Shown here piece by piece: positions 10,801 to 25,520 of a DNA stretch of 64,000 nt. This DNA is from Arenicellales bacterium (lineage in GTDB: Bacteria > Pseudomonadota > Gammaproteobacteria > Arenicellales > Poriferihabitantaceae), in NCBI GenBank assembly GCA_965116595.1, contig OZ220708.1:1078875-1142874 (forward strand), read 5' to 3'. Within the stretch, counting starts at the first letter, position 1. Every line of letters begins with the position of its first letter. The position numbers and the translations under genes were made by a program. The notes under the pieces are model-generated. The model was not told the DNA's origin, made no database searches, and was given only the letters and a program-made list of their open reading frames with translations.

Positions 10801-11160
10801 GAAAGGACGTGTCCTCGCCCCCTCCCCCTCACTCCCCGACGAAAGGAAGTTTGCGTTCGGCGCGTCCGTGACTTGCAGATTCACGGCAAATGACCCGTTG
10901 TGTGGCGATGACAAACTCACCCAGAAACGTATTCTCGTACCCTCTGCCACTGACGCGGGACCATCCCGAGTGATGGTGACCGACGGCAGTGTCTGGGCGA
11001 AGACATTCGGCGCGAAAGCGCTGAGCAGAGGGAGAATGAACAAGACTGACAACAGGCCAAGCCGCAACCCGTGCAGGGTGGAACCGGCGTTGGCGAGAAT
11101 GCCCCGGCGCCCCGAAGCAGAAACCGGACGGTATGGAGTCCCCCGATCAGGGGCGCTCAT
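7861..11160 (-). CDS. type Va autotransporter with a Calx-beta repeat passenger
   Basis: 1099 aa. The signal peptide is LRLGLLSVLFILPLLSAFAPNVFA|Q. About five Calx-beta-like modules are present, three of them near identical (VSFGSSAYSGNEGD..VRVNI.PQRST.TILPITYTNGTAG..DY....SVTIPA.TGFA.FNIPTT.DNEDEDNETFNIAIGTVP.GITKGSPS.ATVTINDDD). A PEPEPEP linker follows. The C-terminal ~400 aa show an alternating beta-barrel pattern ending ...GLGLRLLW (terminal aromatic). The start is uncertain: a TTG at 11067 would give MRLGLLSV..., a textbook signal peptide. Confidence 0.85.
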   Translation of the reverse strand: MSAPDRGTPYRPVSASGRRGILANAGSTLHGLRLGLLSVLFILPLLSAFAPNVFAQTLPSVTITRDGPASVAEGTRIRFWVSLSSPHNGSFAVNLQVTDAPNANFLSSGSEGEGARTRPFLGGTSRTQFFVQTDADSTAELNGPITVKVLPGALYTIGNPSSASVTVTDNDGPLPTSTVNFSSSTYSGDEGDGISVRVNISPPRNTATTLPITYTNGTASNGDYSKSPSSVTIPANTGFATFNIPTTEDNADEANETFTVAIGTVPFGITKGSPSSATVTINDDDSTVRFGSLAYSGNEGDPVSVRVNISPQRSTPTILPITYTNGTAGNGDYSKSPSSVTIPANTGFAEFNIPTTGDNEDEDNETFNIAIGTVPSGITKGSPSTATVTINDDDGTTATTVSFGSSAYSGNEGDEIRVRVNINPQRSTATILPITYTNGTAGSSDYNNSQTSVTIPADTGFATFNIPTTEDNEDEDNETFNIAIGTVPLGITKGSPSSATVTINDDDDTTTTGPTGPTTDPTDPQVPQVSFGSVSHRVTEDDGQVEVEILLTPAPTDAVTLRYTVAGTASMGTDADFQILPRIGSVMVAAGQSRVVIPVTLTDDEEAESDETVILTLVDGEGYTLNQSANIEHTLTVTDNDSGTRPQPEPEPEPAKPIEPMATTSSSVSLLRFGRTVTGQVLDGVLGRVESLGRVGAEGLEVTRSDLLQGAAFTLSSRARTGHLAGFWGNGALGNYQGEEDGIRVDGEVTSVFLGHDMSGRLSGGQPWLAGALLSRNLGEDDWLVAKDRGQVEHSLTTLVPYGSMELSQDLRLWGALGWGRGDMEIQSADQSTTTDTAWRMLAAGFRRNLDSERLTEQGLFLDGVEFSLNGDVRRTRTQSDPVGGIGSTSGRVTRARLGIEGSKTQELGNGATVRPSLEIGLRRDGGDAERGRGVEIGAGIRWSNPSGLGGSMQGRTVTLRSQEELQDRSLSVSVDWDPRPGSALGLSASLGLDAGDVGSSLLFDEGFWNDRDFDDTQRQWRAQAAYGMHTYGRGRVGSPYLTLAGDDHPEKVRFGYRVSSGRSNESVVDLQLDLYLGMDQPVGEETDLGAGLGLRLLW
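9640..10629. repeat. three tandem ~327-339-bp DNA repeats encoding the near-identical Calx-beta modules
   Basis: Protein residues ~178-507 form three units of 109-113 aa with very high identity. The ORF track also shows periodic 92-aa shadow ORFs at 9657, 9996 and 10323. Confidence 0.85.
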
Positions 11161-11186
11161 GACCGACGCACGGGCGCGGGTTGGGC

Positions 11187-11322
11187 CGAACCAGCGAACC
11201 AGCGAACCAGCGAACCAGCGAACCAGCGAACCAGCGAACCAGCGAACCAGCGAACCAGCGAACCAGCGAACCAGCGAACCAGCGAACCAGCGAACCAGCG
11301 AACCAGCGAACCAGCGAACCAG
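11187..11322. repeat. octanucleotide simple sequence repeat (CGAACCAG)x17
   Basis: I counted 17 perfect head-to-tail copies directly in the sequence. The tract starts 27 nt upstream of the autotransporter ATG (11160), in the divergent intergenic region shared with the DrmA-like gene. Confidence 0.97.
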
Positions 11323-11826
11323 CCGATTTTATGCTACCTCCACCCTTTGTCAACCCCTGGAAACCCGTTTCTCCCGAACTCCGACAACTGAGTAAACGAA
11401 TAAATCGTGAATACCGGCCCGTCATCAACCTACCCTCAATGAATATGAATCAAAAAAGCAGATCGGCTTTTCAGCCCCATCTGCCCACAGAGCGGAATCT
11501 ATCACAAAAAACCGGACATTTCTATTTGCTCTTAACACCGTCGAGGAGGCGGATGTGATATTGCTGACCGATGCGACCATCGGCCGATTCTACACGCGAT
11601 TGTGGGGAAAAGATTGTGTGGCTGCAAATCCGGACAATCCGGGTATTTGTCGGCATGGCCCACAATCTCCTTGCAGTCATCCCCGGTCTGTGACATATAT
11701 CGGTCAGGCGCCGCCGGACACAACGGGACACAACGTTCACGGCAGTGGCTAACCAACAGGAATGGGAGAGATGGACGATTTGGAAGAAATTCGAATGCCC
11801 GACTTCTTTTATAGAGCCGATGGCCG

Positions 11827-14800
11827 GTGGTGAATGCCGCCCGCGCCTGGATCGCGCTTGAACATCCATCCCCGGACAGCAACCCCGCCTTTCCCGGCTG
11901 TACACTCGAACTGAACGGACCGCCGAGCCTGTTTTCCGCGATCACGGAACACGACTGGATACTCGTGGTTACGCCGGATGGTGAATTCGTACGCACCGGG
12001 CAGGTCCTTCGTGTTCGTACCGATACCGATAAGGCAACCGTTTATTTCTATCGCCTGCTGAGCGCAAGCAACCAGGTTGCAGTCAAGACCGCCGGTCTGA
12101 TATTGCCTGAGATTGCTGTCCGTCGTCTGCAATGGGATACTTTTGCAAGGGCTGTGGAGATGCTTGCCGGCAGGGCCGTTGACGATGCCCTCCTGATTGA
12201 AAATCAAGCCTATATCAGGGAGTTGCTTCAGCTGGCGGTGATGGACGAGCTGCTTGGACCGGCCAACGGGCCAATTGAACAAATCGTCGATATGAATGTA
12301 CGCGACCGGTATCTGGTCGGTAGACTCTCGCCAATGAAATCAGGCATTGCAGGAGAAGAGCCATTATCCATCGAAGCCGACGAGGGAGAGCCCGGTGATC
12401 CTGATGTGCATAAGGGCAACCAATCTCTCGTCCCGTCCAGTTTCGGAATGACCGTTTGCGTCGACAGCAAAGTCGACATCATTGAAGTCGAGGCGCGATG
12501 GGGGCGTTACCGCCGCGACTACGAAATCGAAGTTTTCAAGACAAAAACAGATCACGACACCAAAGACAAAAATCATGAACACAGAGCGAAGGTATGGCAA
12601 CGCGTCCCCTGCGGAGGCGTCATCAGTATCGACTTGCGGGAAGGGCCGGTCCAGCAAGTGTCGCCAGACGCCGACAACCCGAAAGTTCGCATCCATGGCA
12701 CAGTGCGCGGTAACAGCGTAAACGGCGATCGTCTGGTTACGTTATTTCTCGTCAACACACAGAAAGAGCCTGATGAAAACAAGGACATTGCCTGGGTATT
12801 CCAACCGGAGCTGATCGTTCGCACACCCGCCGATGCGCGCCGGAAAAACGCATTCTGCCGCAAAGTGTCGGTTCACAGGAATGCCGACGACCCGGAGCAT
12901 GATGCACTCGAAATGATTTACCGCAAACATGTCGAATTCGCGGTTGGTCACGGCGTCGCCGTACATGCCGAAACTGCCCCCGGGGAAACTGATCGCGTGA
13001 TCGAGGTGCGCACCGTCGTAATACCCCAATACGAAGTTCCGGTAGCCGAGACGCCAGGACTTCGTCCCGGGGACCGCGCCGCGATGCGGGAGATGGTCGA
13101 GAACGGATTTCTCGATATGGCGCAGCTCGCCGGGATGGACAGGCCGAGGCTGATCAAGGCCCTGACCATTCTTGCAGACGACTACAGGGCATGGATAGAA
13201 GAGCAGCGCGACCGCATTGGAACTGACGTCTTTGGTTTTGGCGAACACGCGGATGCAGCCCTGGAACGTTGCTCTGACATTCACCAACGCCTCGAAAAAG
13301 GCATTAGCCTACTGGACGCTGAGGGAGATGGAACGGCCCTCGAAGCGTTCAGATTTGCCAATCGCGTGATGGCTGAACAACGTATACACAGTATCTATTC
13401 ACTGGCACGGCGGCGCCGGGAAACAGTCGAACTCAAGGATTTCGACGAACCCGGCAACCGGTCGTGGCGTCCGTTCCAGCTTGCCTTCATCCTGCTCTGC
13501 CTGCCGTGTCTGGCCGATCCGGCGCATGCCGACCGAACCAGTCCGGAACAGGCGTTGGCCGATTTACTCTGGTTCCCTACGGGTGGTGGCAAGACCGAAG
13601 CCTACCTTGGTGTCGCTGCCTTCGCGATGGCGATTCGACGCTTGCAGGGCGTAACCGGGGGATACGACAGCAGTCGTGGTCTGGCAGTCATCATGCGTTA
13701 TACGCTCCGCCTGCTGACGTTACAGCAGTTCCAGCGTGCGGCGACGCTGATCTGTGCCATGGAAGTCGTTCGGAAAAAAGCGCTCGCCTCCGGTGACGAC
13801 AAGCTTGGCGCCGAACCCTTCACGGTCGGCTTATGGGTCGGAAACACGGTCACGCCTGGTACGACAGCAGGCATCCACTCGGCAATAGAACGCATTCGTG
13901 ATTCAGGTAAATACGATGCAAGCCGAACGTCGCCGGCACAATTGACGAGCTGTCCATGGTGCGGCACGGAAGTATCGGACAGGCGTGATGTTGAAGTTGA
14001 CAAAATTGCCCTGCGCACGAAGATCTACTGCGGCGACAAGAAGGGGCTATGTGCCTTCTCCAGGGGGCAGTCGAGCAACGAAGTCCATCCCGGCCTGCCG
14101 ATCCTCGTCGTCGACGAAGAGATTTACCACCGTCCGCCGACCATGATGATCGCCACTGTCGATAAGTTCGCCATGATGGCCTGGCGTGGCGAAACACGTA
14201 CCCTGTTCGGGCGTGCGACAGAGGAGTGTCCACGGCACGGCCTGCTCTGGCCGGATGCGAAATGCACCGGAAACCACCACACACAGGGCGGCCTGCCAGC
14301 GACCAGAGTCAAGAGCATCCGGTCGATCCGTCCGCCGGATCTGATCATACAGGACGAATTCCATCTTATCAGCGGACCGCTCGGTACCATGGTTGGCCTC
14401 TACGAGACAGCTGTAGACGAACTCTGCGCCTGGAATCTCGGTGACAAGATCGTAAAACCCAAGATTATCGCTTCAACCGCGACAGTCCGAAAAGCGAAAG
14501 ACCAGGTCAACAACGTCTTTATGCGACGGAGCTCAATCTTCCCACCGAGTGGGCTCGACGTTGCGGATAATTTCTTCTCCGTACTAAGACCCATCAGCCA
14601 GAATCCGGGGCGCCGATATGTAGGCCTCTGTTCTCCCGGAAGCTCGCGCCCGGCGATTCTTATCCGAATTTACACGGCCTTTCTGACCGCTGCACAGGCG
14701 CTGTTCGACAGGTTCGGCCAGATAGCCGATCCCTACCTGACGACGGTTGGCTACTTCAATTCGCTGCGCGAACTCGGGGGCATGAAACGCCTTGCGGAAG

Positions 14801-15750
14801 ACGACGTGCAGACCCGGTGTTTCCGGGTCCAAATGGGCCTGGTTGATCGCCCCGGTCTCGCCCAGCGTAGTGTACGTCATATCCGGGAACTGACATCCCG
14901 TGTTTCGAACCGGGACATCCCCGGATATCTCGACCAATTGGAAGTAAAGTTCAAAGCTGATTTCGACAACGTGAAGGGGAAGTTCATCACACAATGGGAT
15001 GAAGGTGAGACTCGCTCCATCGACATTGTCCTGGCCACGAACATGCTTTCGGTCGGCGTTGACGTGAATCGACTCAGCCTTATGGTCGTCAATGGGCAGC
15101 CGAAAGGAACGGCGGAATATATCCAGGCTACCAGCCGAGTCGGCCGATTCTTTCCGGGGTTGATCTGCACGGTGCTTGCCTGGGCACAGCCGAGAGACCT
15201 GTCCCATTACGAAACCTTCGAGCACTACCACTCGACTTTCTACAAGCATGTCGAAGCCCAGTCGGTAACACCGTTCTCGCCCCGCGCCATGGACCGCGGC
15301 CTGACCGGAGCAATGCTGAGCGTCCTCAGACTCGAAAACACCCGATTCAATTCCAACACAGGAGCGGGCGCACTCAATCGCGCCGACATGGACGAAGTCG
15401 TTCACGTCATCGACGTAATGGTCAGGCGCGCGTGGTTCATATCCGGGCAATCCGCCGTCGGAGAACGCGCTTGTGCCGAGATCAGGGAACGTATCGACGA
15501 ATGGGTCACAGAAGCGGACAAGGGCGGCCGAACCCTGGCCTATGAAAAGAAAGGCAGAAGCAAGGACATGATAGTGCCGCTGCTGCACCGGCCCGGTATT
15601 AAGCCGCGGAATAATTTCACGATCCCGATATCGATGCGCGAAGTCGAGCCCGGCGTACGGTTGGTCATGAACTCGACAAGGTTCGATAATCACGGCCCTG
15701 CCTGGACGCCGCCACCGGCAACCGGTGATGAGGGGGAGGACATATCGTAA
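11827..15750 (+). CDS. drmA: DrmA-like SF2 DExH helicase (DISARM-type large helicase)
   Basis: 1307 aa. It has a ~560-aa N-terminal region. Motif I is LWFPTGGGKTEAYLG, motif II LIIQDEFHLISGPLG, motif III IIASTATV and motif VI YIQATSRVGR. Cys-rich inserts lie between motifs I and II (CPWCGTEV...YCGDKKGLC; CPRHG...AKC). A DUF1998 gene follows it. The GTG start is uncertain. Confidence 0.7.
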   Translation: MVNAARAWIALEHPSPDSNPAFPGCTLELNGPPSLFSAITEHDWILVVTPDGEFVRTGQVLRVRTDTDKATVYFYRLLSASNQVAVKTAGLILPEIAVRRLQWDTFARAVEMLAGRAVDDALLIENQAYIRELLQLAVMDELLGPANGPIEQIVDMNVRDRYLVGRLSPMKSGIAGEEPLSIEADEGEPGDPDVHKGNQSLVPSSFGMTVCVDSKVDIIEVEARWGRYRRDYEIEVFKTKTDHDTKDKNHEHRAKVWQRVPCGGVISIDLREGPVQQVSPDADNPKVRIHGTVRGNSVNGDRLVTLFLVNTQKEPDENKDIAWVFQPELIVRTPADARRKNAFCRKVSVHRNADDPEHDALEMIYRKHVEFAVGHGVAVHAETAPGETDRVIEVRTVVIPQYEVPVAETPGLRPGDRAAMREMVENGFLDMAQLAGMDRPRLIKALTILADDYRAWIEEQRDRIGTDVFGFGEHADAALERCSDIHQRLEKGISLLDAEGDGTALEAFRFANRVMAEQRIHSIYSLARRRRETVELKDFDEPGNRSWRPFQLAFILLCLPCLADPAHADRTSPEQALADLLWFPTGGGKTEAYLGVAAFAMAIRRLQGVTGGYDSSRGLAVIMRYTLRLLTLQQFQRAATLICAMEVVRKKALASGDDKLGAEPFTVGLWVGNTVTPGTTAGIHSAIERIRDSGKYDASRTSPAQLTSCPWCGTEVSDRRDVEVDKIALRTKIYCGDKKGLCAFSRGQSSNEVHPGLPILVVDEEIYHRPPTMMIATVDKFAMMAWRGETRTLFGRATEECPRHGLLWPDAKCTGNHHTQGGLPATRVKSIRSIRPPDLIIQDEFHLISGPLGTMVGLYETAVDELCAWNLGDKIVKPKIIASTATVRKAKDQVNNVFMRRSSIFPPSGLDVADNFFSVLRPISQNPGRRYVGLCSPGSSRPAILIRIYTAFLTAAQALFDRFGQIADPYLTTVGYFNSLRELGGMKRLAEDDVQTRCFRVQMGLVDRPGLAQRSVRHIRELTSRVSNRDIPGYLDQLEVKFKADFDNVKGKFITQWDEGETRSIDIVLATNMLSVGVDVNRLSLMVVNGQPKGTAEYIQATSRVGRFFPGLICTVLAWAQPRDLSHYETFEHYHSTFYKHVEAQSVTPFSPRAMDRGLTGAMLSVLRLENTRFNSNTGAGALNRADMDEVVHVIDVMVRRAWFISGQSAVGERACAEIRERIDEWVTEADKGGRTLAYEKKGRSKDMIVPLLHRPGIKPRNNFTIPISMREVEPGVRLVMNSTRFDNHGPAWTPPPATGDEGEDIS

Positions 15751-15815
15751 ACGATACAACCCCCGTCGGCGAAATCCGCTCAAGTCAAATACTCTGGAAC
15801 TACGGCCCGGGAGCA

Positions 15816-17438
15816 TTGATCGAACTGCCCAACCTGTCCGTGGTCACGATGGGGACCGATCGATGGCAAAAGGACCGGTGCATACAAATCGAGGAAGCCC
15901 GACTATTGTCGGCGGTTCAAAGTGTGCTCGGTCACCAGGTGGAAAGCCTGCGCATGCCTCCGTCCAACAGAAGTGAGGACGATCATCAAAACGACGAAGT
16001 ACTGATTGGTATCCCGGTCAGACCATTTCCGCGCTGGCTGCGCTGCGTCAAATGCGGCCTGTTATCCGAGTTTGATCTCGGCCTCTTCAAGATCAGGAAG
16101 AATCGATTCCGCCCGGAGAACACGCGGTTTGTTCACGGGAACTGCAAGGGATCAAAAGGTAACCTGCCCTCCAGAGACGCGGATGCCGTGCCAGCGCGAT
16201 TCCTGTTCGCCTGCAGAAACGGTCACCTCGACGATTTTCCGTGGCGCTACTTCGTGCACAGTGGACCATCAGCCTGCACGGGCACGTTGCGATTCTTCGA
16301 GAGCGGCGCATCTCTGCAAACCGGAAATCTGTGGGTCAAATGCGACCAATGCAGTACTTCGCGCAACATGGCCCTTGCTTTCGGTAAATCCGGTGAGGAA
16401 AACCTGCCACGATGCCGCGGGCGCCACCCGCATCTCGACCACTACGACGATGATTGCAGGGAACAGGCGCGGACCGTACTGCTGGGCGCAACCAACAGTT
16501 GGTTCCCGATCACACTGTCCGCGCTGGCGATTCCGGTCTCGCGGGATCCGGTCCACCAGCTTGTCCGCAATTGTGGGGATTATTTCAAAGCGGGAATCAA
16601 GGGACCCGAGTGGGAGGCGCTGACCGATCCCGCCCCGTCCAGGGGCGGGCCACATTTCCTGAGCAAACCGGCGCCCGTGCCGACCGGATTTGAGAACCGG
16701 ATTTCCGGCATCCTGTTGCTTGAACGGTTGAGAGAAGTGAATGCGTTGCTCGGTTTCACACGGGTCGAAGCGCCAGAAGAGGGCGGTCCCGACGAGCGTC
16801 CGCTCATGGCCAGACTTTGCAGTGGAGCGCCAACATGGGTTCCCTCCGGCCAAGTGCACGGTGAAGGAATATTCATCCGTTTCGATGAAGACGCACTTCG
16901 GAAATGGGAACAACGGGACAGCGTCCGGGCGAGGGAGATTAAACTGGTATCCGGACACAAGAGCTGGCGGAACTCGCGAAAACTTGATCCCAACGAGGAC
17001 TATCCAGGTGTTCGCTACACGCTGTTGCATACGGTCGCGCACCTGCTGGTTCGTGAACTCGCTCTTGAATGCGGCTATAATTCCGCCAGCATTCGGGAAC
17101 GAATATACGCCGATAACGATAGCGAACAACCGCAGGCCGGTATTCTGGTTTACACCGCTGCCATCGACTCCGACGGCACGCTTGGCGGGCTGGTAGACCT
17201 TGGCAAACCCGAGAATCTCGGCAGACTTCTTATGCAAGCCCTGTCGCGAGCCGAAGTTTGCTCGTCAGATCCGCTCTGCGCGGAACACGAACCGGACAAA
17301 GACCGATCACTGCATGCCGCCTCCTGCCACGCATGCTCTTTCGTTTCGGAAACCTCTTGCGAACGCCAAAACCGTTACCTGGACCGTGCGCTGGTCGTCC
17401 CCACACTGGAAGTTACCGATGCGGCATTTTTCTGTTGA
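15816..17438 (+). CDS. drmB: DrmB-like DUF1998 (MrfA-type Zn-binding) protein
   Basis: 540 aa from a TTG. It has Cys clusters RWLRCVKCG, CRNGHLDDFPW and CDQCS. The C-terminal DUF1998 signature is HAASCHACSFVSETSCERQNRYLDRALV. Coding-like sequence (VGEIRSSQILWNYGPGA) continues upstream of the TTG, so the true start is probably earlier. Confidence 0.7.
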   Translation: MIELPNLSVVTMGTDRWQKDRCIQIEEARLLSAVQSVLGHQVESLRMPPSNRSEDDHQNDEVLIGIPVRPFPRWLRCVKCGLLSEFDLGLFKIRKNRFRPENTRFVHGNCKGSKGNLPSRDADAVPARFLFACRNGHLDDFPWRYFVHSGPSACTGTLRFFESGASLQTGNLWVKCDQCSTSRNMALAFGKSGEENLPRCRGRHPHLDHYDDDCREQARTVLLGATNSWFPITLSALAIPVSRDPVHQLVRNCGDYFKAGIKGPEWEALTDPAPSRGGPHFLSKPAPVPTGFENRISGILLLERLREVNALLGFTRVEAPEEGGPDERPLMARLCSGAPTWVPSGQVHGEGIFIRFDEDALRKWEQRDSVRAREIKLVSGHKSWRNSRKLDPNEDYPGVRYTLLHTVAHLLVRELALECGYNSASIRERIYADNDSEQPQAGILVYTAAIDSDGTLGGLVDLGKPENLGRLLMQALSRAEVCSSDPLCAEHEPDKDRSLHAASCHACSFVSETSCERQNRYLDRALVVPTLEVTDAAFFC

Positions 17439-17469
17439 GGATCGATTGAAGTACTGACCTTCGTCAGCT

Positions 17470-18198
17470 TTAACTTAAGTTCTCAAGCTCGGCTTTATGG
17501 GCCTGTGCCATGTCAAGCATACTATTGAATACGAAATCGTATTTCGGCATTTTACCCGGATTCATCGTTGCGCCAAAGCCCTCCTGGTCATGACGTCTGT
17601 AGATCCAGCAGTTCGCAAGACCATGTTTATTTGCCGGTGCATGGTCATGGAACATGCTTTCCGCTGTATGCAGTATGTCTTTGCGTTCAAGTCCGAGTGC
17701 TGCAAGTCTATCCAGAAAATAGTTGAAATTGCGATCGGAAGGTTTGTATGACCCACAATCTTCAGCAGTGTAAACAGCATCGAATTTAACTTGCAGACGG
17801 GCGTTGCTATAGGCGAAGCTTGCATTGTCGACGTTAGACAGGATGATCAATTTGAAATGTTGCTTCAGATAGGTGAGCGCCTCGACGGAATCTGAAAAAG
17901 CAGGCCAGCGCTTCACCGATTGGCCGTAAGTTCTGGCTTCCTCGTGCGTATGATCGACACCCCATTCTTCGGCGAGGCGCTTGTAAACGATGGATAGTAA
18001 ATCCTGATACAGCATTCCGGGTGTCTGCGCTTGTTGCGCAGATTCGTAGCGGGCGTGCGCTTCCAGAACGACGTCGCGTGACAGGGTGAAATCAGCTTTC
18101 TCTATCAATGAAGCCAGGCCCGTCATCATTCCTGATTCCCAGTCTATCAGAGTACCATAGCAATCGAATACCAGCGCTTTGTAATCAGATAGTTTCAT
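17470..18198 (-). CDS. haloacid dehalogenase type II / HAD-superfamily hydrolase
   Basis: I trimmed the start to MKLSDYKALVFDCYGTLIDWE (DxYGT HAD motif I; ATG at 18198). The longer track ORF (to 18444) would overlap rpsI. SNVDN and the YKP region are consistent with L-2-haloacid dehalogenases. Confidence 0.85.
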   Translation of the reverse strand: MKLSDYKALVFDCYGTLIDWESGMMTGLASLIEKADFTLSRDVVLEAHARYESAQQAQTPGMLYQDLLSIVYKRLAEEWGVDHTHEEARTYGQSVKRWPAFSDSVEALTYLKQHFKLIILSNVDNASFAYSNARLQVKFDAVYTAEDCGSYKPSDRNFNYFLDRLAALGLERKDILHTAESMFHDHAPANKHGLANCWIYRRHDQEGFGATMNPGKMPKYDFVFNSMLDMAQAHKAELENLS

Positions 18199-18256
18199 AT
18201 CTCGACTGCGTAGTTGAGAGCAGACAGTAGGCGGTGTCGGGCCGACGGGCCCGGGT

Positions 18257-18655
18257 CTAACGTTTGGAGTACTGTGGACGCTTTCTGGCCTTGTGCAAGC
18301 CCACTTTTTTGCGTTCAACTTCCCGCGCATCGCGGGTAACAAATCCTGCCTGCCGCAAGGAACTGCGAAGCTCTTCATCGTAAGTGATGAGTGCACGGGT
18401 GATGCCGTGTCGAATAGCGCCAGCCTGACCACTGTTGCCGCCACCGCTTACATTTACCCTGACATCCACCTTGTCGAGCATTTCAACCAGTTCCAGAGGC
18501 TGGCGAACAATCATTCGCGAGGTCTCGCGTCCAAAGTATTCTTCCAGAGGAACCTTGTTGACAACAATGCTGCCGGCGCCGCGTTCAAGATAAACTCGAG
18601 CTGTTGAAGATTTACGACGTCCGGTTCCCCGCCAGGTTTCTTGAGTCTGTGCCAT
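18257..18655 (-). CDS. rpsI: 30S ribosomal protein S9
   Basis: 132 aa. It reads [14 protein letters not shown]...[19 protein letters not shown]...[11 protein letters not shown]. Confidence 0.97.
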
Positions 18656-18699
18656 ATCAAATACGATAACGTTTGATTTAATTCTGAATTTTCATTCTG

Positions 18700-19128
18700 T
18701 CAGATTTCCAGAACCCTGGGTTGCTGGGCCTGATGTTGATGCTGCTCTCCTGCATATACCTTGAGTTTTGAAAACATGGCCCTGCCAAGCTTGTTGCGCG
18801 GCAACATGCCTTTAACTGCACTTTCGATCACACGGGCAGGGTGATTTCCGATCATCTCACGAAATGAAGTCTCCTTGATCCCTCCCGGGTATCCTGTGTG
18901 GCGATAATACTTCTTCGCATTGGCCTTATTACCTGTCACCGCAATCTTCTCTGCATTCACTACGATAACATAATCCCCGGTATCGACATGGGGGGTATAT
19001 TCAGCCTTGTGCTTGCCTCTCAAGCGATGTGCGATTTCAGAAGCCAATCTACCCAAAACCTTGTTATTGGCATCAATCACGAACCAGTCGCGTTTTACTG
19101 TTTGAGGATTTGCTGAGAACGTTTTCAT
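18700..19128 (-). CDS. rplM: 50S ribosomal protein L13
   Basis: 142 aa. It reads [52 protein letters not shown] and lies upstream of rpsI, as is canonical. Confidence 0.97.
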
Positions 19129-19244
19129 TTGTTATAAACGAAATTCAGGTAAAAAACGGAGCGCGGATCATACTAAAGACAGAAGCGTGATACAAGTATC
19201 CCGTAACTTTTTTCAGGTATTTAAACTCAAATGCGCCACACAGG

Positions 19245-20456
19245 CTATATCAATAACTCAATCCAGTGCTTGACAGGCTCAGAACTGACATTGTTCAAGT
19301 GAACCTGGCAACCGACATTTGCCGTGCATACGATATCGGGATCGTTCTCCTGTAACGCAGCGATTTTACTGGTTTGCAGTTGTCCTGACAGTCCCGGTTG
19401 CAACAGAGAGTATGCGCCAGCCGAACCACAGCATAAGTGGGAATCCTCCACTGCACAGATCTGATACCCTGCGCGCTCCAGAATTCGTTCTACCTTACCC
19501 TTGATCCTCTGACCATGCTGAAGCGTACAGGGGGAATGAAAGGCTACCTTTGATCCGGCAGCCTTCACCCGATGGATCGAGTCGGGCTCTCTCTCGACCA
19601 CCTCCGAAAGATCAAGGGTTTTCCCGGATATGAGCCGGGCCTTTTCATAATATTCTTCATCCTCCGAGAACAAATTTTCGTATTCCTTGATCGTGACAGC
19701 ACATCCACTGGCAGTCACAATAAAACCATCCACTCCCTGATCGAGGTAAGGCCACCATGCATCAATCAGTTTGCGTGCATGTTGTCTGGCCTTGCGCTCA
19801 TTGGTCGTATGCAAGTCCAGGGAGCCACAACACCCGGCAGCCTTCGCTTCAATCAATGATATTCCCGACCTTCCCAGTATCACTGCGGCTGCGGCATTGG
19901 TATCCGGTGTCAGGGTTCCCTGCACACACCCGGCCAGAACGATCATTTTTCTGGAATGCACCGGCTTTGGCCATCGAATTCGATCTTCGGCCAGGGGTTT
20001 CGGTATCTTGTTTTTGAGTATCCCGGGCAAAACCGGCCTTACAAATTGTCCTGCCCGAAGCAAAAATGAAAACAGTCCCGGACGCGTGATTATTGCAGCA
20101 AGCACAGCCCTTGAATAATTTTCCGACCGCTTTGCCGGCACGCGTTTGTCTAAGAAATACCGCCCCGTTTCCAGTAACTTCCCATATTCCACCCCTGATG
20201 GACAAGTCGTCTCACACGCCCGACAGGTCAGGCAACGATCAAGATGTACCCTTGATGACTTGTTCACCTGTTCACCTTCAAGTAATTGCTTGATCAGATA
20301 GATTCTTCCCCGCGGACCATCTCTCTCGTCTCCCAATAGCTGGTAGGTGGGGCAGGTTGCATTACAAAAACCGCAATGCACGCATTTGCGGAGAATCCGG
20401 TTCGCGATTTTACCTTTGGAGGTAGCCGCAATTTCGCTTGTCAATGACGTTTGCAT
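19245..20456 (-). CDS. glcF: glycolate oxidase iron-sulfur subunit
   Basis: 403 aa. It has two ferredoxin-type motifs (CVHCGFCNATCP, CLTCRACETTCP) and CCG-domain cysteines (CCGS, HLCCGSAG). It lies downstream of glcD and glcE. Confidence 0.9.
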   Translation of the reverse strand: MQTSLTSEIAATSKGKIANRILRKCVHCGFCNATCPTYQLLGDERDGPRGRIYLIKQLLEGEQVNKSSRVHLDRCLTCRACETTCPSGVEYGKLLETGRYFLDKRVPAKRSENYSRAVLAAIITRPGLFSFLLRAGQFVRPVLPGILKNKIPKPLAEDRIRWPKPVHSRKMIVLAGCVQGTLTPDTNAAAAVILGRSGISLIEAKAAGCCGSLDLHTTNERKARQHARKLIDAWWPYLDQGVDGFIVTASGCAVTIKEYENLFSEDEEYYEKARLISGKTLDLSEVVEREPDSIHRVKAAGSKVAFHSPCTLQHGQRIKGKVERILERAGYQICAVEDSHLCCGSAGAYSLLQPGLSGQLQTSKIAALQENDPDIVCTANVGCQVHLNNVSSEPVKHWIELLI

Positions 20457-21523: not shown

Positions 21524-22989
21524 TAAAAACGATCCAGTTCGGGGAAAGGCAGTTCTCCTGCATGGACATGCATGGCATTATGCTCTGCACATCTGGCAAG
21601 GGTGGGTATGGCTTTCCCCGGATTGAGTAACCTGGCCTGATCGAAGCATTCACGTACTGCATGGAATTGCCCACGCTCCTGATCGTTGAACTGGATGCAC
21701 ATTTCACCGATTTTCTCTACACCCACGCCATGCTCGCCGGTGATGGTGCCGCCCACCGCAATACACAATTGAAGAATTTCACTGCCCAGTTTTTCGGTTT
21801 TTTCCAACTCCCCGGGCTGGTTGGCGTCATAAAGAATCAGCGGATGCAGATTGCCGTCCCCCGCATGGAACACATTGGCAACCGGTAACTGATACTGCTC
21901 GGAGAGACTGTTAATTTCAGTCAGCACGTGGCCCAAAGATTTACGCGGAATAGTGCCATCGATACAATAATAATCCGGTGAAATCCGACCGACCGCAGGA
22001 AATGCGGCCTTTCTGCCTGACCAGAACAACTCTCTCTCGTGCTCATCCCTGGCAACCCGACTCTCGACAGCGCCATTTTGATCAAACATTTGTTTGACAC
22101 GCTCAATTTGATCATCCACTTCAGTCGGCGTGCCATCGAGTTCACACAACAATATCGCGCTGGCCGCGGTTGGATAACCTGCCTTGACAAAGTCTTCGGC
22201 AGCGCATATCGCCGGGTTATCCATCATTTCAATACCCGCTGGAATGATGCCATTACCGATAATGTCAGCCACGCTGTCCCCGGCATTCTTAACCGAATCG
22301 AACACCCCCATGATGACTTTCGCCGTATCCGGTATCGGCAATAATTTCACGCCCACTTCAACCACAACACCCAGCATTCCCTCGGACCCTATCATCAGTG
22401 AAAGCAGGTTGAATCCCGGATTATCCAGGCTGCATCCACCGATCTCAACAAGATCACCTTCCATGGTCGCTATCTTCAAACAGGTAATGTTGTGTAGTGT
22501 TAATCCATATTTCAAGCAGTGTACCCCACCCGCATTTTCTGCGACATTTCCACCGATGGTGCATGCGATCTGGGATGAAGGGTCCGGTGCATAATAGAGC
22601 CCGTGTTTTTTGACCGCATCAGAGATTGCAAGGTTTCGTATCCCCGGTTCAACCCTTGCAGTGCGGTTGGCCAGATCCAGCTCCAGCATCCGATTCATTT
22701 TTGCCAGACTCAGAACAATACCCTCCCTGTGGGGCAAGGCGCCCCCCGACAGACTGGTTCCACCCCCCCTGCTGACTATTGGAAGAGAGTGTTCCCTGCA
22801 GATTGCCATGGTCCGTTGAACCTGCTCAACGCTATCGGGTAATACCACCAGCTTTGGGATTTGCCTGTAGGCGCTCAGTCCATCGCACTCATAAACCCGC
22901 AACTCGGTCTTGTCTGAAACGATGGACTCCGATGGCAGGACATTTTCGAACAGTCCCCTGATTTCATTTGTGTTCATTGAAGTCGTCAA
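21523..22989 (-). CDS. glcD: glycolate oxidase subunit GlcD (FAD-linked oxidase)
   Basis: 488 aa. It has an FAD-binding PCMH domain (IVSRGGGTSLSGGALP) and a C-terminal FAD-oxidase domain (GTITGEHGVG). Confidence 0.92.
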   Translation of the reverse strand: MTTSMNTNEIRGLFENVLPSESIVSDKTELRVYECDGLSAYRQIPKLVVLPDSVEQVQRTMAICREHSLPIVSRGGGTSLSGGALPHREGIVLSLAKMNRMLELDLANRTARVEPGIRNLAISDAVKKHGLYYAPDPSSQIACTIGGNVAENAGGVHCLKYGLTLHNITCLKIATMEGDLVEIGGCSLDNPGFNLLSLMIGSEGMLGVVVEVGVKLLPIPDTAKVIMGVFDSVKNAGDSVADIIGNGIIPAGIEMMDNPAICAAEDFVKAGYPTAASAILLCELDGTPTEVDDQIERVKQMFDQNGAVESRVARDEHERELFWSGRKAAFPAVGRISPDYYCIDGTIPRKSLGHVLTEINSLSEQYQLPVANVFHAGDGNLHPLILYDANQPGELEKTEKLGSEILQLCIAVGGTITGEHGVGVEKIGEMCIQFNDQERGQFHAVRECFDQARLLNPGKAIPTLARCAEHNAMHVHAGELPFPELDRF

Positions 22990-23119
22990 GAATATTTACG
23001 TTTCCCCTGTCTTTGGTTTGTGTTTGCAGGATATAACAGGAGAGGAAGCAGAGCAAATCCCTTTCCCTGGACCACGACGAAATTTCGATGTAGGCCAGAG
23101 CCTGCCCCCAACCGTAATC

Positions 23120-23233
23120 GTAGGGGCGGGTCCCCGGCCCCCGATCAGGCCGAGGGCAGGCCTTGATCGGGGAGCGGGTCTCCGTGCCCGCCCACAGAAT
23201 CCCATAACCCGCCCCAAATTTCGTCATTCCCGC
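23120..23233. repeat. REP-like element, copy B, with a nested hairpin insertion and a half dRS3-like site
   Basis: The sequence is gtaggggcgggtcccc / 38-bp palindrome (ccccgatcaggcc...ggccttgatcgggg) / gcgggtctccgtgcccgcccac ... aaatttcgtcattcccgc. It shares modules with copies A and C. Confidence 0.5.
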
Positions 23234-23299
23234 AATAGCCTACCTTACCCTCGCGAGGAACAATCAGGTATCATAAACACCAATCCACCCTATGAAGCG

Positions 23300-24012
23300 A
23301 TGGATGGATTATCCATTCAGCGGAGACTTCCAACCATCCCGGAATCTGAATGTATTGACGAACCCGCCTCCCAGCGGCAACACAATGAAGACCGGATGCG
23401 CCGCGCCGACGCCTGGATCAAGCGCAGCAAGCAGGATGATACGGAAGACATCGAGCGCTTCATGTTTTTCTGGGTTGCTTTCAATGCGGCCTATGGCAAT
23501 GAGGCGGCACTGCGTGATTTCGTCGATGGGGAGGAAGGAAGGGAGAGCGAATCCCACTACTTCATGGTATTTCTCAAGAATATTGTGGAACAGGATGTAT
23601 CAGGCGCCTTGGAAAGAATCGTATGGGGAGAGTTCTCCGGCCCGATCCGGACAACCACTACGTGTTCCACCCCTTCTGGAAGTCGGTCTGGGACCTCAAG
23701 CCGGAACGTGACTGGAAGAGACACTTCAAGAGCGAAAAGAACAGAGTGAGGAAGGCCCTGTCGAGACGGGACGTCCTTCCCATCCTGTCGGTCGTGTTCC
23801 GCCGTCTCTATACATTGCGCAACCAGATATTCCATGGTGGCGCAACCTATCCCAGCGGCTTCGGTCGCACCCAGATCCGGGACGGAAGCCGGATCATGGC
23901 CTCCCTCGTGCCGGCGATCATCGACATCATGAAGCAAGATCTCAGCCGCGACTCAGACTCGGAAACCTGGGGAAAGGTCGCGTATCCGCGTATCAACGCT
24001 GAACCGGAATAG
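23300..24012 (+). pseudogene. HEPN-domain protein gene disrupted by a frameshift
   Basis: Two overlapping ORFs lie in different frames. One is MDGLSIQRRL...FMFFWVAFNAAYG...ERIVWGEFSGPIR. The other is ...DNHYVFHPFWKSVW...LYTLRNQIFHGGATY and carries the Rx4H HEPN motif. The frames switch at about 23640-23652, and the span of 713 nt is not a multiple of 3. Confidence 0.55.
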
Positions 24013-24254
24013 CATCCTTCGTTCGCCTGGCGCCAATCACACCAAACCCTCCGGGAATCCACCGCCCGCAAGATACACACCCGCCATCACCACCGCCCCG
24101 CCACCCGAACCCCGAGGCGGTGCGGCGGCGGGGCGTTGCCGTCACCGTGACCGTCGCTATGCCATCCGAAATCGGGAGACTCACCGGCAATCCTCCGACG
24201 CCACTGCTCAAGTCTGAATAGTCAAAAGCGGGCAATGAAGGTCAGCCCGACTTC

Positions 24255-24640
24255 GTGTTGCGGCCGGGTTCCCGCTGTACTGCCTGCCTTACTCCGTTGC
24301 GTTTCCACCAGAATATCCCGATAGCCAGCTTTATCTTTTTGTCCGGCAGGTGTGGATTTTGCGGCATTCGAATTTCGCCGCGTTATCCGGTCGTCGAGAT
24401 GATCTCTGCGGTGATGGCCGTCACGCTCGGAGTCGTATATGAGCCTGACTGGCAACTTGCAGCCGTGATGGTTTTTGTCTGTACCTTGCTCACATTGAGC
24501 CTGATCGATATGGATCACCAGGTCTTGCCGGACCTGATTGTCCTGCCGCTGCTGTGGGCCGGAGTGCTGTTCATTTCCCTGTCTCTTTTTGTTGACCTGC
24601 ATTTAGCGGTATGGGGCGCGGTTGCCGGGTATCTGGCGCA
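24255..24640 (+). pseudogene. pilD: internal fragment of prepilin peptidase/N-methyltransferase
   Basis: LRPGSRCTACLTPLRFHQNIPIASFIFLSGRCGFCGIRISPRYPVVE is the PilD Cys-box region, and LIDMDHQVLPD is the first catalytic Asp motif. The first ~65 aa and the C-terminal half with the second Asp are missing. Similarity ends near 24640 (AGYLAQCLSLFVPNERF). Confidence 0.7.
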
Positions 24641-25520
24641 ATGTTTGTCTTTATTTGTGCCAAATGAACGGTTTGCGGCTCAGATCAGTGGTGATATCGG
24701 AGACATTCATGACTTGTGGCACCATCTCTATGGTAAGCTTCCTGGCCTCTTTGTATCGACTAAACCGTTATCTGAATTCGATATATCGTCCTGCAATTAT
24801 CATTTCTTTTCGCTTAAAAGACCTTGGCGAGGGGAGCGAAGTGGAAGCTATGGGCGAATTTCACCATTTGGGAGACAAACAAATTCGTTAGCGCCGACAA
24901 AACAACACAAAGGAGATATAAGAAAACTTTGGCGATCAAGACGAAAATACCAGTAGAGGATGCTCCTTGGCAGCGTCAGAATGTTTGCCGATTGCGAGTC
25001 CTGCCGCACCCTTTCCTGAACTAGGCCGGAGGTTGAAACCTCCCCAAATTTATTGATCAAGCTTCGTCTCTCTTTCCTGATGAATGGGTTTGCGGGGAGA
25101 ATATTGAAACTGGGGTTGACAGAACTGAACGGCGACCTAGTCGATGTGATCGATCATAAATTGTCGAGATCGCCAATGTAAATGATCGTCTATAGAGTCG
25201 CCTAGAGGAGTTGCCGGAATGTAGTCAACACTGGTCTCGAACTTCATTTAACCGTTATCCTTGTGCATTTATTTGTTATTTCTCAGCCTGCCAGTACAAA
25301 GTTCTGGTTGTTCAATGCTGGCTCACGTCGCCTTCGAACCGCTTACCCTGTGATACAATTTCAGGGCGAAATTATTAACACTGCCAACTAAGGAAACGTT
25401 TCTTGAAAAGGTAAGTTGTCTAACCGGAGTAACCTAGAACCAAATCGACGCGGAGATCAAATCACCAAACGCATCAGACTTGGTGATAGTTAGCCATTAA
25501 AGCAGATAAGGAGTGACACA

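What the first reader, a model, noticed from the sequence alone, without database searches (positions are those of the whole stretch)
11827..17438. Stand-alone DrmA/DrmB-like pair (large DExH helicase plus DUF1998) with no methyltransferase, PLD or SNF2 partner
The 1307-aa helicase and the 540-aa DUF1998 protein match the core pair of DISARM systems. The helicase has motifs I, II, III and VI plus Cys-rich inserts between motifs I and II. The DUF1998 protein has the C-terminal CHAC...C..QN..LD signature.

Described DISARM loci also carry a DNA methyltransferase (drmMI or drmMII), and usually drmC (PLD) together with drmD or drmE. Here both flanks are unrelated genes on the opposite strand: the autotransporter on one side and the HAD hydrolase 31 nt away on the other.

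Three explanations are possible. This may be a minimal, methylase-independent variant. It may be a decayed DISARM locus. Or it may rely on a modification made elsewhere, and the same window encodes dnd phosphorothioation 12 kb away. That last link is pure speculation.
Basis: partly seen in the sequence, partly recalled or inferred. Interest (0 to 1): 0.7.

Follow-up and report, generated by a model that had tools for sequence, protein, structure and literature searches.

The report
Methylase-less DrmA/DrmB pair, clade-conserved
The two genes are genuine DISARM anti-phage core proteins (DrmA helicase and DrmB). A clade of sponge-associated bacteria has kept them alone, without the usual methylase and partner genes, at one fixed chromosomal site under purifying selection, so this is a stripped-down variant of a known defence system and not a decayed leftover.

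Summary
ORF 11827-15750 is a class-1-type DrmA (NCBIfam 1402 bits, cutoff 950). ORF 15816-17438 is DrmB (651 bits, cutoff 240). No DrmMI, DrmD or DrmC was found, intact or as a remnant, and no DNA methyltransferase was detected in the ORFs scanned across the 64 kb.

The pair is not an isolated decay product. Nine genomes (sponge-associated Arenicellales / Ca. Poriferihabitaceae MAGs) carry drmA-drmB alone at the same site, next to rpsI-rplM-glcFED. Their DrmA form one clade (40/40 bootstrap) nested among complete class-1 DISARM loci. dN/dS is 0.09-0.25 and dS equals that of the flanking housekeeping genes.

The window's sublineage has further changes:
- Half of DrmA's autoinhibitory trigger loop was deleted in two steps.
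- The canonical drmB start codon is lost (GTGA to GTAA), although 24 conserved N-terminal codons stay open.
- DrmB has a 50-aa in-frame deletion.
- The neighbouring MobF relaxase is reduced to 15 codons.

The best reading is a methylase-independent DrmAB module that senses DNA structure. This agrees with published deletion data for Serratia DISARM. The dnd link is not supported. Function is untested. This is a new variant of a known kind.

The parts
11827..15750 (+). drmA, 1307 aa, class-1-type DISARM SF2 helicase. All helicase motifs are intact and RecA1 carries two Cys-rich zinc-binding inserts.
   Evidence: It is about 60% identical over its full length to Serratia DrmA, PDB 7S9V chain A.
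11827..12210 (+). N-terminal ~128 aa of DrmA, equivalent to the EVE-like (modified-base-reader-like) domain described for class-1 DrmA. It is the fastest-evolving part of the protein.
   Evidence: It aligns to Serratia DrmA residues 12-199. The domain assignment is taken from Bell et al. 2025 and was not tested here. dN/dS is 0.38 in the AB-only clade and 0.36 in complete systems.
12337..12423 (+). Residual trigger loop of DrmA. The deletion junction lies at 12414/12415 (after K196). The window lacks 29 aa (GRHDPGAEFDNATGRVDAEVEAPDEIHTA), equivalent to Serratia residues ~200-226 of the 176-232 trigger loop.
   Evidence: The trigger-loop coordinates come from PMC9142583. L001 and L089 have an 18-aa deletion. 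The window has a further 11-aa (33-nt) deletion between GGGCA direct repeats.
13507..15231 (+). RecA1 (with zinc-binding modules) and RecA2 helicase core of DrmA.
   Evidence: Motifs read. dN/dS is 0.13 for RecA1 and 0.07 for RecA2.
15643..15714 (+). DrmA C-terminal 'pivot arm'. It includes V1273, the equivalent of Serratia V1296, the proposed DNA-base/methylation sensor.
   Evidence: Alignment to 7S9V_A. The role of V1296 and the pivot arm is from PMC9142583.
15744..15815 (+). 24 in-frame codons (I-V-NDTTPVGEIRSSQILWNYGPGA) encoding the family-conserved DrmB N-terminus, with no ATG/GTG/TTG available. The ancestral GTG that overlapped the drmA stop is now GTA (GTGA to GTAA). A strong SD-like GGGGGAGG lies just upstream.
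   Evidence: Of 76 family loci, only WIN and L001 lack a canonical start ahead of this motif.
15816..17438 (+). drmB as mechanically called (540 aa from TTG). It is an OB-CON-DUF1998/MZB protein with all Zn-binding Cys intact. A 50-aa in-frame deletion has its junction at 16589/16590.
   Evidence: The alignment with the 614-aa orthologues is and the match to 7S9V_B.
11581..11826 (.). Intergenic region upstream of drmA, conserved across the AB-only clade (the divergent relaxase/drmA control region). The window lacks about 75-100 nt of it just before drmA, apparently deleted between TCGAATG direct repeats.
11536..11580 (-). Remnant (first 15 codons, MVASVSNITSASSTV) of the MobF/TrwC relaxase-helicase gene. 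This gene is intact and divergently adjacent to drmA in six other clade members.
   Evidence: Relaxase dN/dS is about 0.2.
17454..17467 (+). Weak hairpin between the convergent drmB and HAD genes. It may act as a terminator.
   Evidence: This is a consensus match only.

Best explanation
The locus is a lineage-specific two-gene derivative of a class-1 DISARM system.

Origin. An ancestor of a clade of sponge-associated Arenicellales / Ca. Poriferihabitaceae bacteria held drmA-drmB, divergently next to a MobF relaxase, between the flavin-reductase operon and rpsI-rplM. It either lost or never received drmD, drmMI and drmC. The pair has since been inherited vertically and kept by purifying selection.

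Mechanism (inferred from the Serratia DrmAB structure and genetics). DrmA and DrmB form a heterodimeric SF2 translocase. It loads on single-stranded DNA or 5'-overhang DNA, the kind exposed by entering or replicating phage and plasmid DNA. It then hydrolyses ATP and blocks replication or circularisation of that DNA. Self versus non-self is decided by DNA structure and not by a cognate methylation mark. Any nuclease would have to be recruited from elsewhere.

The window's sublineage. The autoinhibitory trigger loop has been cut roughly in half. By analogy with the engineered loop deletion, this should loosen substrate gating. DrmB has lost its canonical start codon and a 50-aa segment. Both genes have nevertheless stayed under selection since these changes.

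Shown here: identity, absence of partners, synteny, monophyly, selection and the lesions. Inferred: activity, its target, and how DrmB is initiated.
For: Identity:
- DrmA and DrmB pass their curated HMM cutoffs. They align full-length to PDB 7S9V chains A and B.

Recurrence and origin:
- Of 80 related loci, about 65-70 are DrmD-DrmMI-(insert)-DrmA-DrmB-DrmC. Further complete systems appear.
- Only WIN, L001-L006, L010 and L084 are AB-only. All sit at the same site.
- They are monophyletic in 40/40 NJ bootstraps and nested among complete systems.
- No remnants of the partner genes were found.
- None of the 120 best DrmMI homologues lies on a contig with the length of any AB-only chromosome.

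Selection:
- dN/dS is 0.15-0.17 for DrmA and 0.09-0.14 for DrmB, like neighbouring glcDEF. dS matches the flanks.
- WIN-L001 dN/dS is 0.25 and 0.235, with p=1e-23 and 1e-11 against neutrality. These two genomes diverged after the shared lesions arose.
- Catalytic motifs, the Zn-binding cysteines, the V1296 equivalent and the pivot arm are intact.

Literature:
- Serratia class-1 DISARM shows no autoimmunity without its methylases. DrmABC without methylases still protects against M13. [quoted passage not shown]
- DrmAB selects targets by DNA structure through the trigger loop (PMC9142583).
Against: - No functional data exist for this or any two-gene DrmAB locus.
- For one Serratia phage (Nami), deleting drmD and drmMI nearly abolished protection. 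DrmAB alone may therefore be weak.
- No nuclease is linked.
- The window lineage carries four lesions: the trigger-loop deletion, the start-codon loss, the 50-aa DrmB deletion and the upstream deletion.
- In one close relative (L089, a 4x-coverage contig), drmA is cut by an integrase-bearing island. The pair is therefore dispensable.
- A fixed housekeeping-like location with long vertical inheritance is atypical for defence genes.
- A methyltransferase elsewhere in these genomes could not be excluded.
- The trees are NJ, dN/dS is pairwise NG86, and most relatives are MAGs.
Confidence: 0.6

Rival explanations
1. Domesticated housekeeping helicase. After losing its DISARM partners, the DrmAB pair was co-opted for host DNA repair or replication-fork processing, in the way the related YprA-family MrfA acts in repair. 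It no longer acts in defence.
For: - The pair sits at a fixed site among housekeeping genes, next to rpsI-rplM.
- Inheritance is vertical, with dS of about 1 equal to the flanks, and selection is as strong as on neighbouring metabolic genes.
- The clade has 14 fixed substitutions at positions that are at least 95% conserved in other DrmA, against 0-3 in control clades.
- YprA-family members include repair helicases.
Against: - The fixed substitutions are mostly conservative, and the clade simply sits on a long branch.
- Defence-specific features are retained with unchanged relative constraint: the N-terminal EVE-like domain, the trigger-loop motif in most members, and the V1296 equivalent.
- The pair appears disrupted in L089, so it is not essential.
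- The ancestral neighbour is a mobile-element relaxase.
- There is no MrfB-like exonuclease partner.
Confidence: 0.15
2. Decaying remnant in this genome. The clade-level pair was functional, but the window's allele is on its way to becoming a pseudogene.
For: - The window and L001 uniquely lack a canonical drmB start codon among 76 loci.
- The trigger-loop deletion happened in steps.
- DrmB has a 50-aa deletion.
- Part of the conserved upstream region and the relaxase are deleted.
- The L089 sister has a truncated drmA.
- WIN-L001 dN/dS is somewhat higher (0.24-0.25) than the deeper comparisons.
Against: - All deletions are in frame, and 5.6 kb carries no stop codon or frameshift.
- The shared lesions predate the WIN-L001 split, yet dN/dS since then is far below 1 (p=1e-23 and 1e-11).
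- The flanking housekeeping genes show the same rise in dN/dS at this short divergence (glcF 0.32).
- The 24 N-terminal DrmB codons keep the conserved motif intact in both genomes, and an SD-like GGGGGAGG appears only in this lineage.
Confidence: 0.12
3. Split system. DrmAB still depends on a DNA modification made by unlinked genes, either the dnd phosphorothioation genes 12 kb away or an orphan methyltransferase elsewhere in the genome. That modification marks self DNA.
For: - DrmA keeps the proposed base/methylation-sensing valine and the EVE-like N-terminal domain.
- dndBCDEA is in the same window.
- One clade member (L084) has a small N6/N4 methyltransferase 3.4 kb upstream.
Against: - The dnd genes lie in a ~28-kb island inserted between glcD and COQ7. 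In L001 and L003, whose fetched flank reaches COQ7, that site carries no island.
- The island carries its own PbeA/PbeC-type restriction partner.
- The L084 methyltransferase is next to a transposase. It has no homologue in the window or, at a significant E-value, in the other AB-only loci searched (best match E=0.72).
- No DrmMI-like gene was traced to any AB-only chromosome.
- Class-1 DISARM is not autoimmune without its methylases.
Confidence: 0.1

Closest known systems
Class 1 DISARM (Serratia sp. SCBI drmD-drmMI-drmA-drmB-drmC-drmMII; DrmAB structures PDB 7S9V/7S9W)
   Same: DrmA and DrmB are full-length homologues (~60% identity) with the same domain order, helicase motifs, Zn sites, pivot arm and V1296 equivalent. 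The DrmA clade is nested inside class-1 DrmA.
   Different: There is no DrmD, DrmMI, DrmC or DrmMII. The location is a fixed chromosomal site next to ribosomal protein genes and not a defence island. In this window, half of the trigger loop is deleted, the drmA-stop/drmB-start overlap is destroyed, and DrmB lacks 50 aa.
Experimental partial DISARM constructs (DrmABC without methylases; DrmA delta-TL mutant)
   Same: These are laboratory versions of what this locus is naturally. A methylase-free core still protects against M13 and is not autoimmune. A trigger-loop deletion still forms the heterodimer and binds DNA more tightly and less selectively.
   Different: Those constructs are engineered in E. 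coli from a complete system. Here the state is natural and has been maintained by selection for a long time (dS ~1). It also lacks DrmC, and the loop deletion is partial (29 of ~57 residues).
Class 2 DISARM (Bacillus paralicheniformis drmE-drmA-drmB-drmC-drmMII)
   Same: It shares the DrmA/DrmB core.
   Different: The window DrmA scores below the cutoff for the class-2-type model (NF038326: 695 bits against 999). In class 2 the methylase is required to avoid toxicity (as cited), and no such methylase is present here.
MrfA/MrfB (YprA/YprB) repair helicase-exonuclease pair
   Same: It belongs to the same YprA helicase superfamily with a DUF1998/MZB Zn domain, is a two-gene unit, and is chromosomal.
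   Different: [quoted passage not shown] Here the module is a separate DrmB, no exonuclease is adjacent, and the HMMs place both proteins firmly in DrmA/DrmB.
Two-gene YprA-helicase defences (type III Druantia DruE-DruH)
   Same: This is a compact two-gene system built on a YprA-family helicase. It acts on ssDNA-containing intermediates without a methylase (abstracts listed).
   Different: DruE carries a fused DUF1998 and a nuclease domain, and its partner DruH is unrelated to DrmB. The window proteins gave no PADLOC Druantia hit.

Membership tests
DISARM class 1 | DrmA: large SF2 helicase matching the DrmA model | tested here: met
   NF038325 scores 1402 bits (cutoff 950). PADLOC DrmA gives E=0.
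DISARM class 1 | DrmB: DUF1998/MZB protein encoded immediately downstream of drmA | tested here: met
   NF038324 scores 650.7 bits (cutoff 240). PF09369 also hits.
DISARM class 1 | DrmMI: N6-adenine (PglX/Eco57I-like) methyltransferase in the operon | tested here: not met
   tblastn found nothing in the 64-kb window or within +-10 kb of the seven AB-only loci searched. No MTase domain was found in the window ORFs scanned. None of the top 120 DrmMI homologues lies on an AB-only chromosome. The rest of the genome was not searchable.
DISARM class 1 | DrmD: SNF2-like helicase in the operon | tested here: not met
   No tblastn hit. The only other SF2 helicase in the window is PbeA, in the dnd island.
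DISARM class 1 | DrmC: PLD-domain protein downstream of drmB (core in the original definition, experimentally dispensable) | tested here: not met
   No tblastn hit. drmB is followed 31 nt later by a convergent HAD gene.
DISARM class 1 | Anti-phage/anti-plasmid activity modulated by host methylation | not testable with these tools
   This needs cloning, plaque and conjugation assays, and a methylome.
DrmAB core complex (as in PDB 7S9V) | Intact autoinhibitory trigger loop (Serratia residues 176-232; conserved motif GRHxPGAEFDxxTGRVDAE..DEI) | tested here: not met
   The window lacks 29 aa (~Serratia 200-226). The loop is intact in L002-L006, L010 and the complete systems aligned.
DrmAB core complex (as in PDB 7S9V) | DrmA C-terminal pivot arm and V1296, paired with the DrmB N-terminal region that it wraps | tested here: inconclusive
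   The pivot arm and V1273 are present. The DrmB N-terminal 24 codons are conserved and open but have no canonical start codon.
MrfAB / YprAB repair pair | Helicase fused to OB-CON-DUF1998, plus an adjacent MrfB exonuclease | tested here: not met
   The helicase and DUF1998 are separate genes, no exonuclease neighbour is present, and only DrmA/DrmB models exceed their cutoffs.
Dnd-associated restriction (DndFGH / PbeABCD-type partner of dnd modification) | Co-occurrence and linkage with the dnd modification genes | tested here: not met
   None of the AB-only relatives has dnd genes in the flanks fetched. In L001 and L003 the glcD-COQ7 site holds no such island. The island has its own PbeA/PbeC.

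The most novel reading that the evidence does not exclude
DrmAB is a self-sufficient, methylation-independent module that a symbiont lineage has kept as a permanent chromosomal fixture.

The window's allele would be a natural 'open' version. The trigger loop is half-deleted. DrmB would be made either from a non-AUG codon (ATC at 15744, served by the lineage-specific GGGGGAGG) or as a DrmA-DrmB fusion by -1 slippage on the G5 run. Either route would recreate the single-chain YprA architecture.

This would mean DISARM's methylase, SNF2 and PLD genes are accessories to an autonomous DNA-structure sensor. That sensor might have been redirected here to host DNA maintenance or plasmid control.
Probability: 0.2. 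Interest if true: 0.7.

Novelty: new variant of a known kind. Interest (0 to 1): 0.5.

Why it matters
DISARM is defined as a restriction-modification-like system, yet its mechanism and the need for its methylases are unsettled. Deletion experiments in Serratia suggested that DrmAB does most of the work and that the methylases only tune it.

A lineage that has kept DrmAB alone under purifying selection is the natural counterpart of those experiments. The evidence spans synonymous divergence of about 1 and nine genomes. It offers ready-made alleles for testing what the core does by itself: a full trigger loop, an 18-aa deletion and a 29-aa deletion.

It also shows that standard defence-system finders, which to my recollection (not checked here) require three or more DISARM genes, will miss such loci.

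Tried and rejected
- **Exact-sequence look-up of the window's DrmB:** not on record.
- **Remnants of partner genes:** tblastn with DrmD, DrmMI, DrmC, Dcm-like MTase and Vsr from seven complete systems found nothing. It covered the window and seven AB-only loci at E<=1e-2.
- **Methyltransferase in the window:** Pfam scans of the larger ORFs found none. A [DNS]PP[YFW] motif scan flagged only ORF 22910-23749 (NPPY). That ORF is low-complexity, has no family hit even at E<=10, and is rejected as a chance match. The small N6/N4 MTase seen in L084 has no homologue in the window.
- **DrmMI elsewhere in clade genomes:** I tried to trace it by matching contig lengths among the best 120 of 6399 DrmMI homologues. 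There was no match. This is negative but not exhaustive.
- **Rfam scan of 11000-19300:** nothing at E<=1.
- **drmA promoter:** the consensus scan found no convincing plus-strand promoter upstream of drmA.
- **Relaxed constraint on the EVE-like domain:** I tested whether constraint relaxed after the methylase loss. It did not (0.38 against 0.36), but saturation in the comparison set limits this.
- **N-terminal DrmB codons:** selection on the 24 upstream codons shows 3 synonymous to 2 non-synonymous differences between WIN and L001. My estimate is p~0.09, which is only suggestive.
- **dnd dependence:** rejected on synteny grounds.
- **'Autotransporter' label for the upstream gene:** not supported.
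- **Structure prediction:** skipped, because a solved homologue at about 60% identity exists.

Full report
**What is there.** The window has two co-directional ORFs, 11827-15750 (1307 aa) and 15816-17438 (540 aa).
- The first passes the NCBIfam equivalog for the class-1-type DISARM helicase. NF038325 scores 1402 bits against a cutoff of 950. The class-2-type model NF038326 scores only 695 against 999.
- The second passes the DrmB family model (650.7 bits against 240) and Pfam MZB/DUF1998. PADLOC gives DrmA and DrmB with E-values down to 0.
- Both align end to end with the solved Serratia DrmA and DrmB (PDB 7S9V).
Bell et al. call the inserts zinc-binding modules.

**Surroundings.**
- Upstream lie metG, an aldehyde dehydrogenase, a hydrolase, a luciferase-like monooxygenase and a flavin reductase.
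- Next comes a 1099-aa Calx-beta repeat protein on the opposite strand. It is not demonstrably an autotransporter.
- Downstream, 31 nt after drmB, is a convergent type II haloacid dehalogenase. rpsI, rplM and glcFED follow.
- From about 23 kb to 51 kb there is a defence island between glcD and COQ7. It holds Mrr-like and HNH nucleases, dndBCD(E)A, PbeC-like and PbeA genes, a TIR protein, an IS256-family transposase and a UvrD/GajB-like helicase.
- No DNA methyltransferase domain turned up in the window ORFs scanned. tblastn with DrmD, DrmMI, DrmC, a Dcm-like MTase and Vsr from seven complete DISARM loci found nothing in the 64 kb.

**Does the two-gene form recur?** Yes, and in a very specific way.
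- The closest DrmA homologues (91, 82 and 78% identity) sit on long contigs with drmA-drmB alone at the same chromosomal site, flavin reductase ... drmA drmB | rpsI rplM glcFED.
- A scan of one genome per species returned 80 loci. I called ORFs, clustered them and annotated cluster representatives with PADLOC.
- About 65-70 loci are canonical class-1 DISARM, DrmD-DrmMI-(variable insert)-DrmA-DrmB-DrmC, often with a C5 methylase and Vsr.
- The only loci with full flanks and no partners are WIN, L001-L006 (L007 duplicates L003), L010 and later L084. All are MAGs labelled Arenicellales or Candidatus Poriferihabitaceae. That family name occurs in one held paper, on a sponge genome and its associated metagenome.
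- Their DrmA form one clade in 40 of 40 NJ bootstrap replicates. The clade is nested among complete systems, and the sisters are 69-73% identical to the window's DrmA.

The two-gene state therefore arose once, from a class-1 ancestor.

**Is it decaying?** No, at least not at clade level.
- Pairwise Nei-Gojobori estimates give dN/dS of 0.15-0.17 for drmA and 0.09-0.14 for drmB. The flanking glcF, glcE and flavin reductase give 0.12-0.19.
- The dS values of drmAB track those of the flanking genes pair by pair: about 0.15 to L001, 0.5-0.7 to L002/L003 and 0.9-1.3 to the deepest members. This indicates vertical co-inheritance with the chromosome.
- There are no partner-gene remnants in any AB-only locus.
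- None of the 120 best DrmMI homologues lies on a contig whose length matches an AB-only chromosome. This is a useful but not exhaustive negative.

**Features specific to this window's sublineage (WIN, L001, L089).**
1. *Trigger loop.* Serratia residues 176-232 form a loop that occludes the DNA site and restricts binding to ssDNA and 5' overhangs (PMC9142583). The family alignment shows it carries a conserved motif, GRHxPGAEFDxxTGRVDAE..DEI.
   - L001 and L089 lack 18 residues of it.
   - The window lacks a further 11, giving 29 in total and corresponding to about Serratia 200-226.
   - Each deletion is flanked by short direct repeats.
2. *drmB start.* In all 74 other family loci a canonical start lies at or within two codons of the drmA stop, usually as NTGA. 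WIN and L001 have GTAA, and their first ATG/GTG/TTG is 23 codons downstream, after most of the conserved N-terminal motif (PVGEIRSSQILW.YGPGA).
   - The 24 codons remain open and the motif is intact in both genomes.
   - A GGGGGAGG Shine-Dalgarno-like run exists only in this sublineage, 4 nt before an ATC and 7 nt before the former start.
   - In Serratia the DrmA C-terminus wraps the DrmB N-terminus, and this is the largest subunit interface. It therefore matters whether these codons are translated.
   - Non-AUG (ATC) initiation, initiation at the downstream TTG or ATG, or a -1 slip on the G-run giving a DrmA-DrmB fusion are all conceivable. None was testable here.
3. *DrmB deletion.* DrmB lacks 50 residues in frame, about Serratia 284-334.
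4. *Upstream region.* About 75-100 nt of the otherwise conserved region upstream of drmA is missing.
5. *Relaxase.* The MobF/TrwC relaxase-helicase sits divergently next to drmA in six other clade members and is itself under purifying selection (dN/dS ~0.2). In the window it is reduced to its first 15 codons.

Lesions 2 and 3 are shared with L001 and so predate the WIN-L001 split. Since that split, drmA and drmB have accumulated 110 and 44 non-synonymous against 130 and 56 synonymous differences. That gives dN/dS of 0.25 and 0.235, with binomial p=1e-23 and 1e-11 against neutrality, and no stop codon or frameshift. The flanking genes show the same mild rise in dN/dS at this short distance. The window's alleles are therefore still being selected.

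Against essentiality, the L089 contig (95% nucleotide identity, but only 4x coverage) has drmA cut at about codon 1152 by an island carrying integrases. No drmB is on that contig.

**How it probably works.** The mechanism is inferred from the Serratia work. DrmA and DrmB form a 1:1 complex that loads on ssDNA or 5'-overhang DNA once the trigger loop is displaced. The complex hydrolyses ATP and is proposed to block replication or circularisation of invading DNA. A PLD nuclease is dispensable, and nucleases may be borrowed.

Three published results bear directly on a methylase-less state:
- Serratia class-1 DISARM shows no autoimmunity when both methylases are deleted.
- DrmABC without methylases still protects against M13.
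- The authors attribute protection 'primarily' to drmA and drmB.

I therefore commit to a methylase-independent DrmAB module that senses DNA structure and interferes with incoming phage or plasmid DNA. In the window's allele, gating is probably loosened by the shortened loop. The same paper shows that for phage Nami the loss of drmD and drmMI nearly abolishes protection. The stand-alone pair may therefore be narrow or weak.

**Rivals.**
- *Domestication into host DNA metabolism.* The fixed, housekeeping-like location and long vertical inheritance favour it. So do the 14 clade-fixed substitutions at family-conserved positions, against 0-3 in control clades. Against it, those changes are mostly conservative, defence-type features are retained with unchanged relative constraint, the ancestral neighbour is a relaxase, and the pair seems dispensable in L089.
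- *Ongoing decay of this particular allele.* The lesions favour it, but the selection test argues against it.
- *Dependence on unlinked modification.* This cannot be excluded genome-wide. The specific dnd idea fails for three reasons. The dnd island is absent from the glcD-COQ7 site in L001 and L003. No AB-only relative has dnd genes in the flanks fetched. The island carries its own PbeA/PbeC partner.

**Comparison with the known, and novelty.** The proteins are members of the DrmA and DrmB families. The locus does not meet the definition of a DISARM system, because DrmMI, DrmD and DrmC were tested for and are absent. It works most like the DrmAB core of class-1 DISARM.

I found no description of a naturally conserved two-gene DrmAB lineage in the searchable literature. 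The recent YprA-family survey treats DISARM helicases within complete operons.

I rate this a new variant of a known kind. It is moderately interesting as a natural experiment on what the DISARM core does alone, and as a source of graded natural trigger-loop deletions. It is not categorically new.

**Caveats.**
- The survey covers the best 80 of at least 515 relatives.
- The trees are NJ, and dN/dS is pairwise and saturating at the deepest nodes.
- ORF calling in the loci was mechanical.
- Most relatives are MAGs.
- Nothing about expression or activity could be tested.

Noticed in passing
window 11187-11323 (with promoter-like site 11353-11326, minus strand): A perfect 8-nt tandem repeat (CGAACCAG x17.1) lies in the 5' leader of the Calx-beta repeat protein gene, between a near-consensus TTGACA-16-TAAAAT promoter and the gene's ATG at 11160. 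It may be a slipped-strand expression switch.
   Followed up: partly
window 11536-11580 (-); L003:6945-9647, L004-L006, L010, L084: A MobF/TrwC relaxase-helicase (~900 aa) is conserved divergently next to drmA in six clade members, under purifying selection (dN/dS ~0.2) and with no other conjugation genes nearby. The window keeps only its first 15 codons. Whether it works with DrmAB is unknown.
   Followed up: partly
window 22990-51268: A ~28-kb defence island is inserted between glcD and COQ7, which are adjacent in L003. It holds an A24 peptidase fragment, a PDC-M38A/PD-Lambda-5_A-like gene, Mrr-like and HNH nucleases, dndBCD(E)A, PbeC-like and PbeA genes, a TIR protein, a second Mrr-like gene, an IS256-family transposase and a UvrD/GajB-like helicase.
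   Followed up: partly
L008-L088, between drmMI and drmA: In complete class-1 DISARM loci the drmMI-drmA gap acts as a cargo slot with many alternative inserts. These include a 651-aa HATPase_c_3 protein in 29 loci, PDC-S39 in 8, an AspBHI/Mrr-like methyl-directed nuclease in 7, an unannotated 473+331-aa pair in 7, and others.
   Followed up: no
L089:13484-23504 (window equivalent 15283 onward): In a 95%-identical relative, drmA is cut at about codon 1152 by an element with two integrases, a 1105-aa TrwC relaxase and an A24 prepilin peptidase. The far end of the element matches window 23036-24649. Coverage is only 4x, so a chimeric assembly is possible.
   Followed up: partly
window 17470-18198 (-): A type II haloacid dehalogenase gene (TIGR01428: 165 bits, cutoff 125) lies between drmB and rpsI in the window and L001 only. 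The mechanically called 324-aa ORF overlaps rpsI and is probably too long.
   Followed up: partly
L084:5683-6591 (-): One AB-only genome has a 302-aa N6/N4 methyltransferase and a DDE transposase just beyond the relaxase. It has no significant homologue in the window or the other AB-only loci searched.
   Followed up: partly
window DrmA residues 667-699 (13825-13923): Four of the 14 clade-fixed substitutions at otherwise conserved DrmA positions cluster here (I667V, K674R/T, S683I/M, G699N/S), just before the first zinc-binding insert of RecA1. This could be a surface that lost a partner.
   Followed up: no
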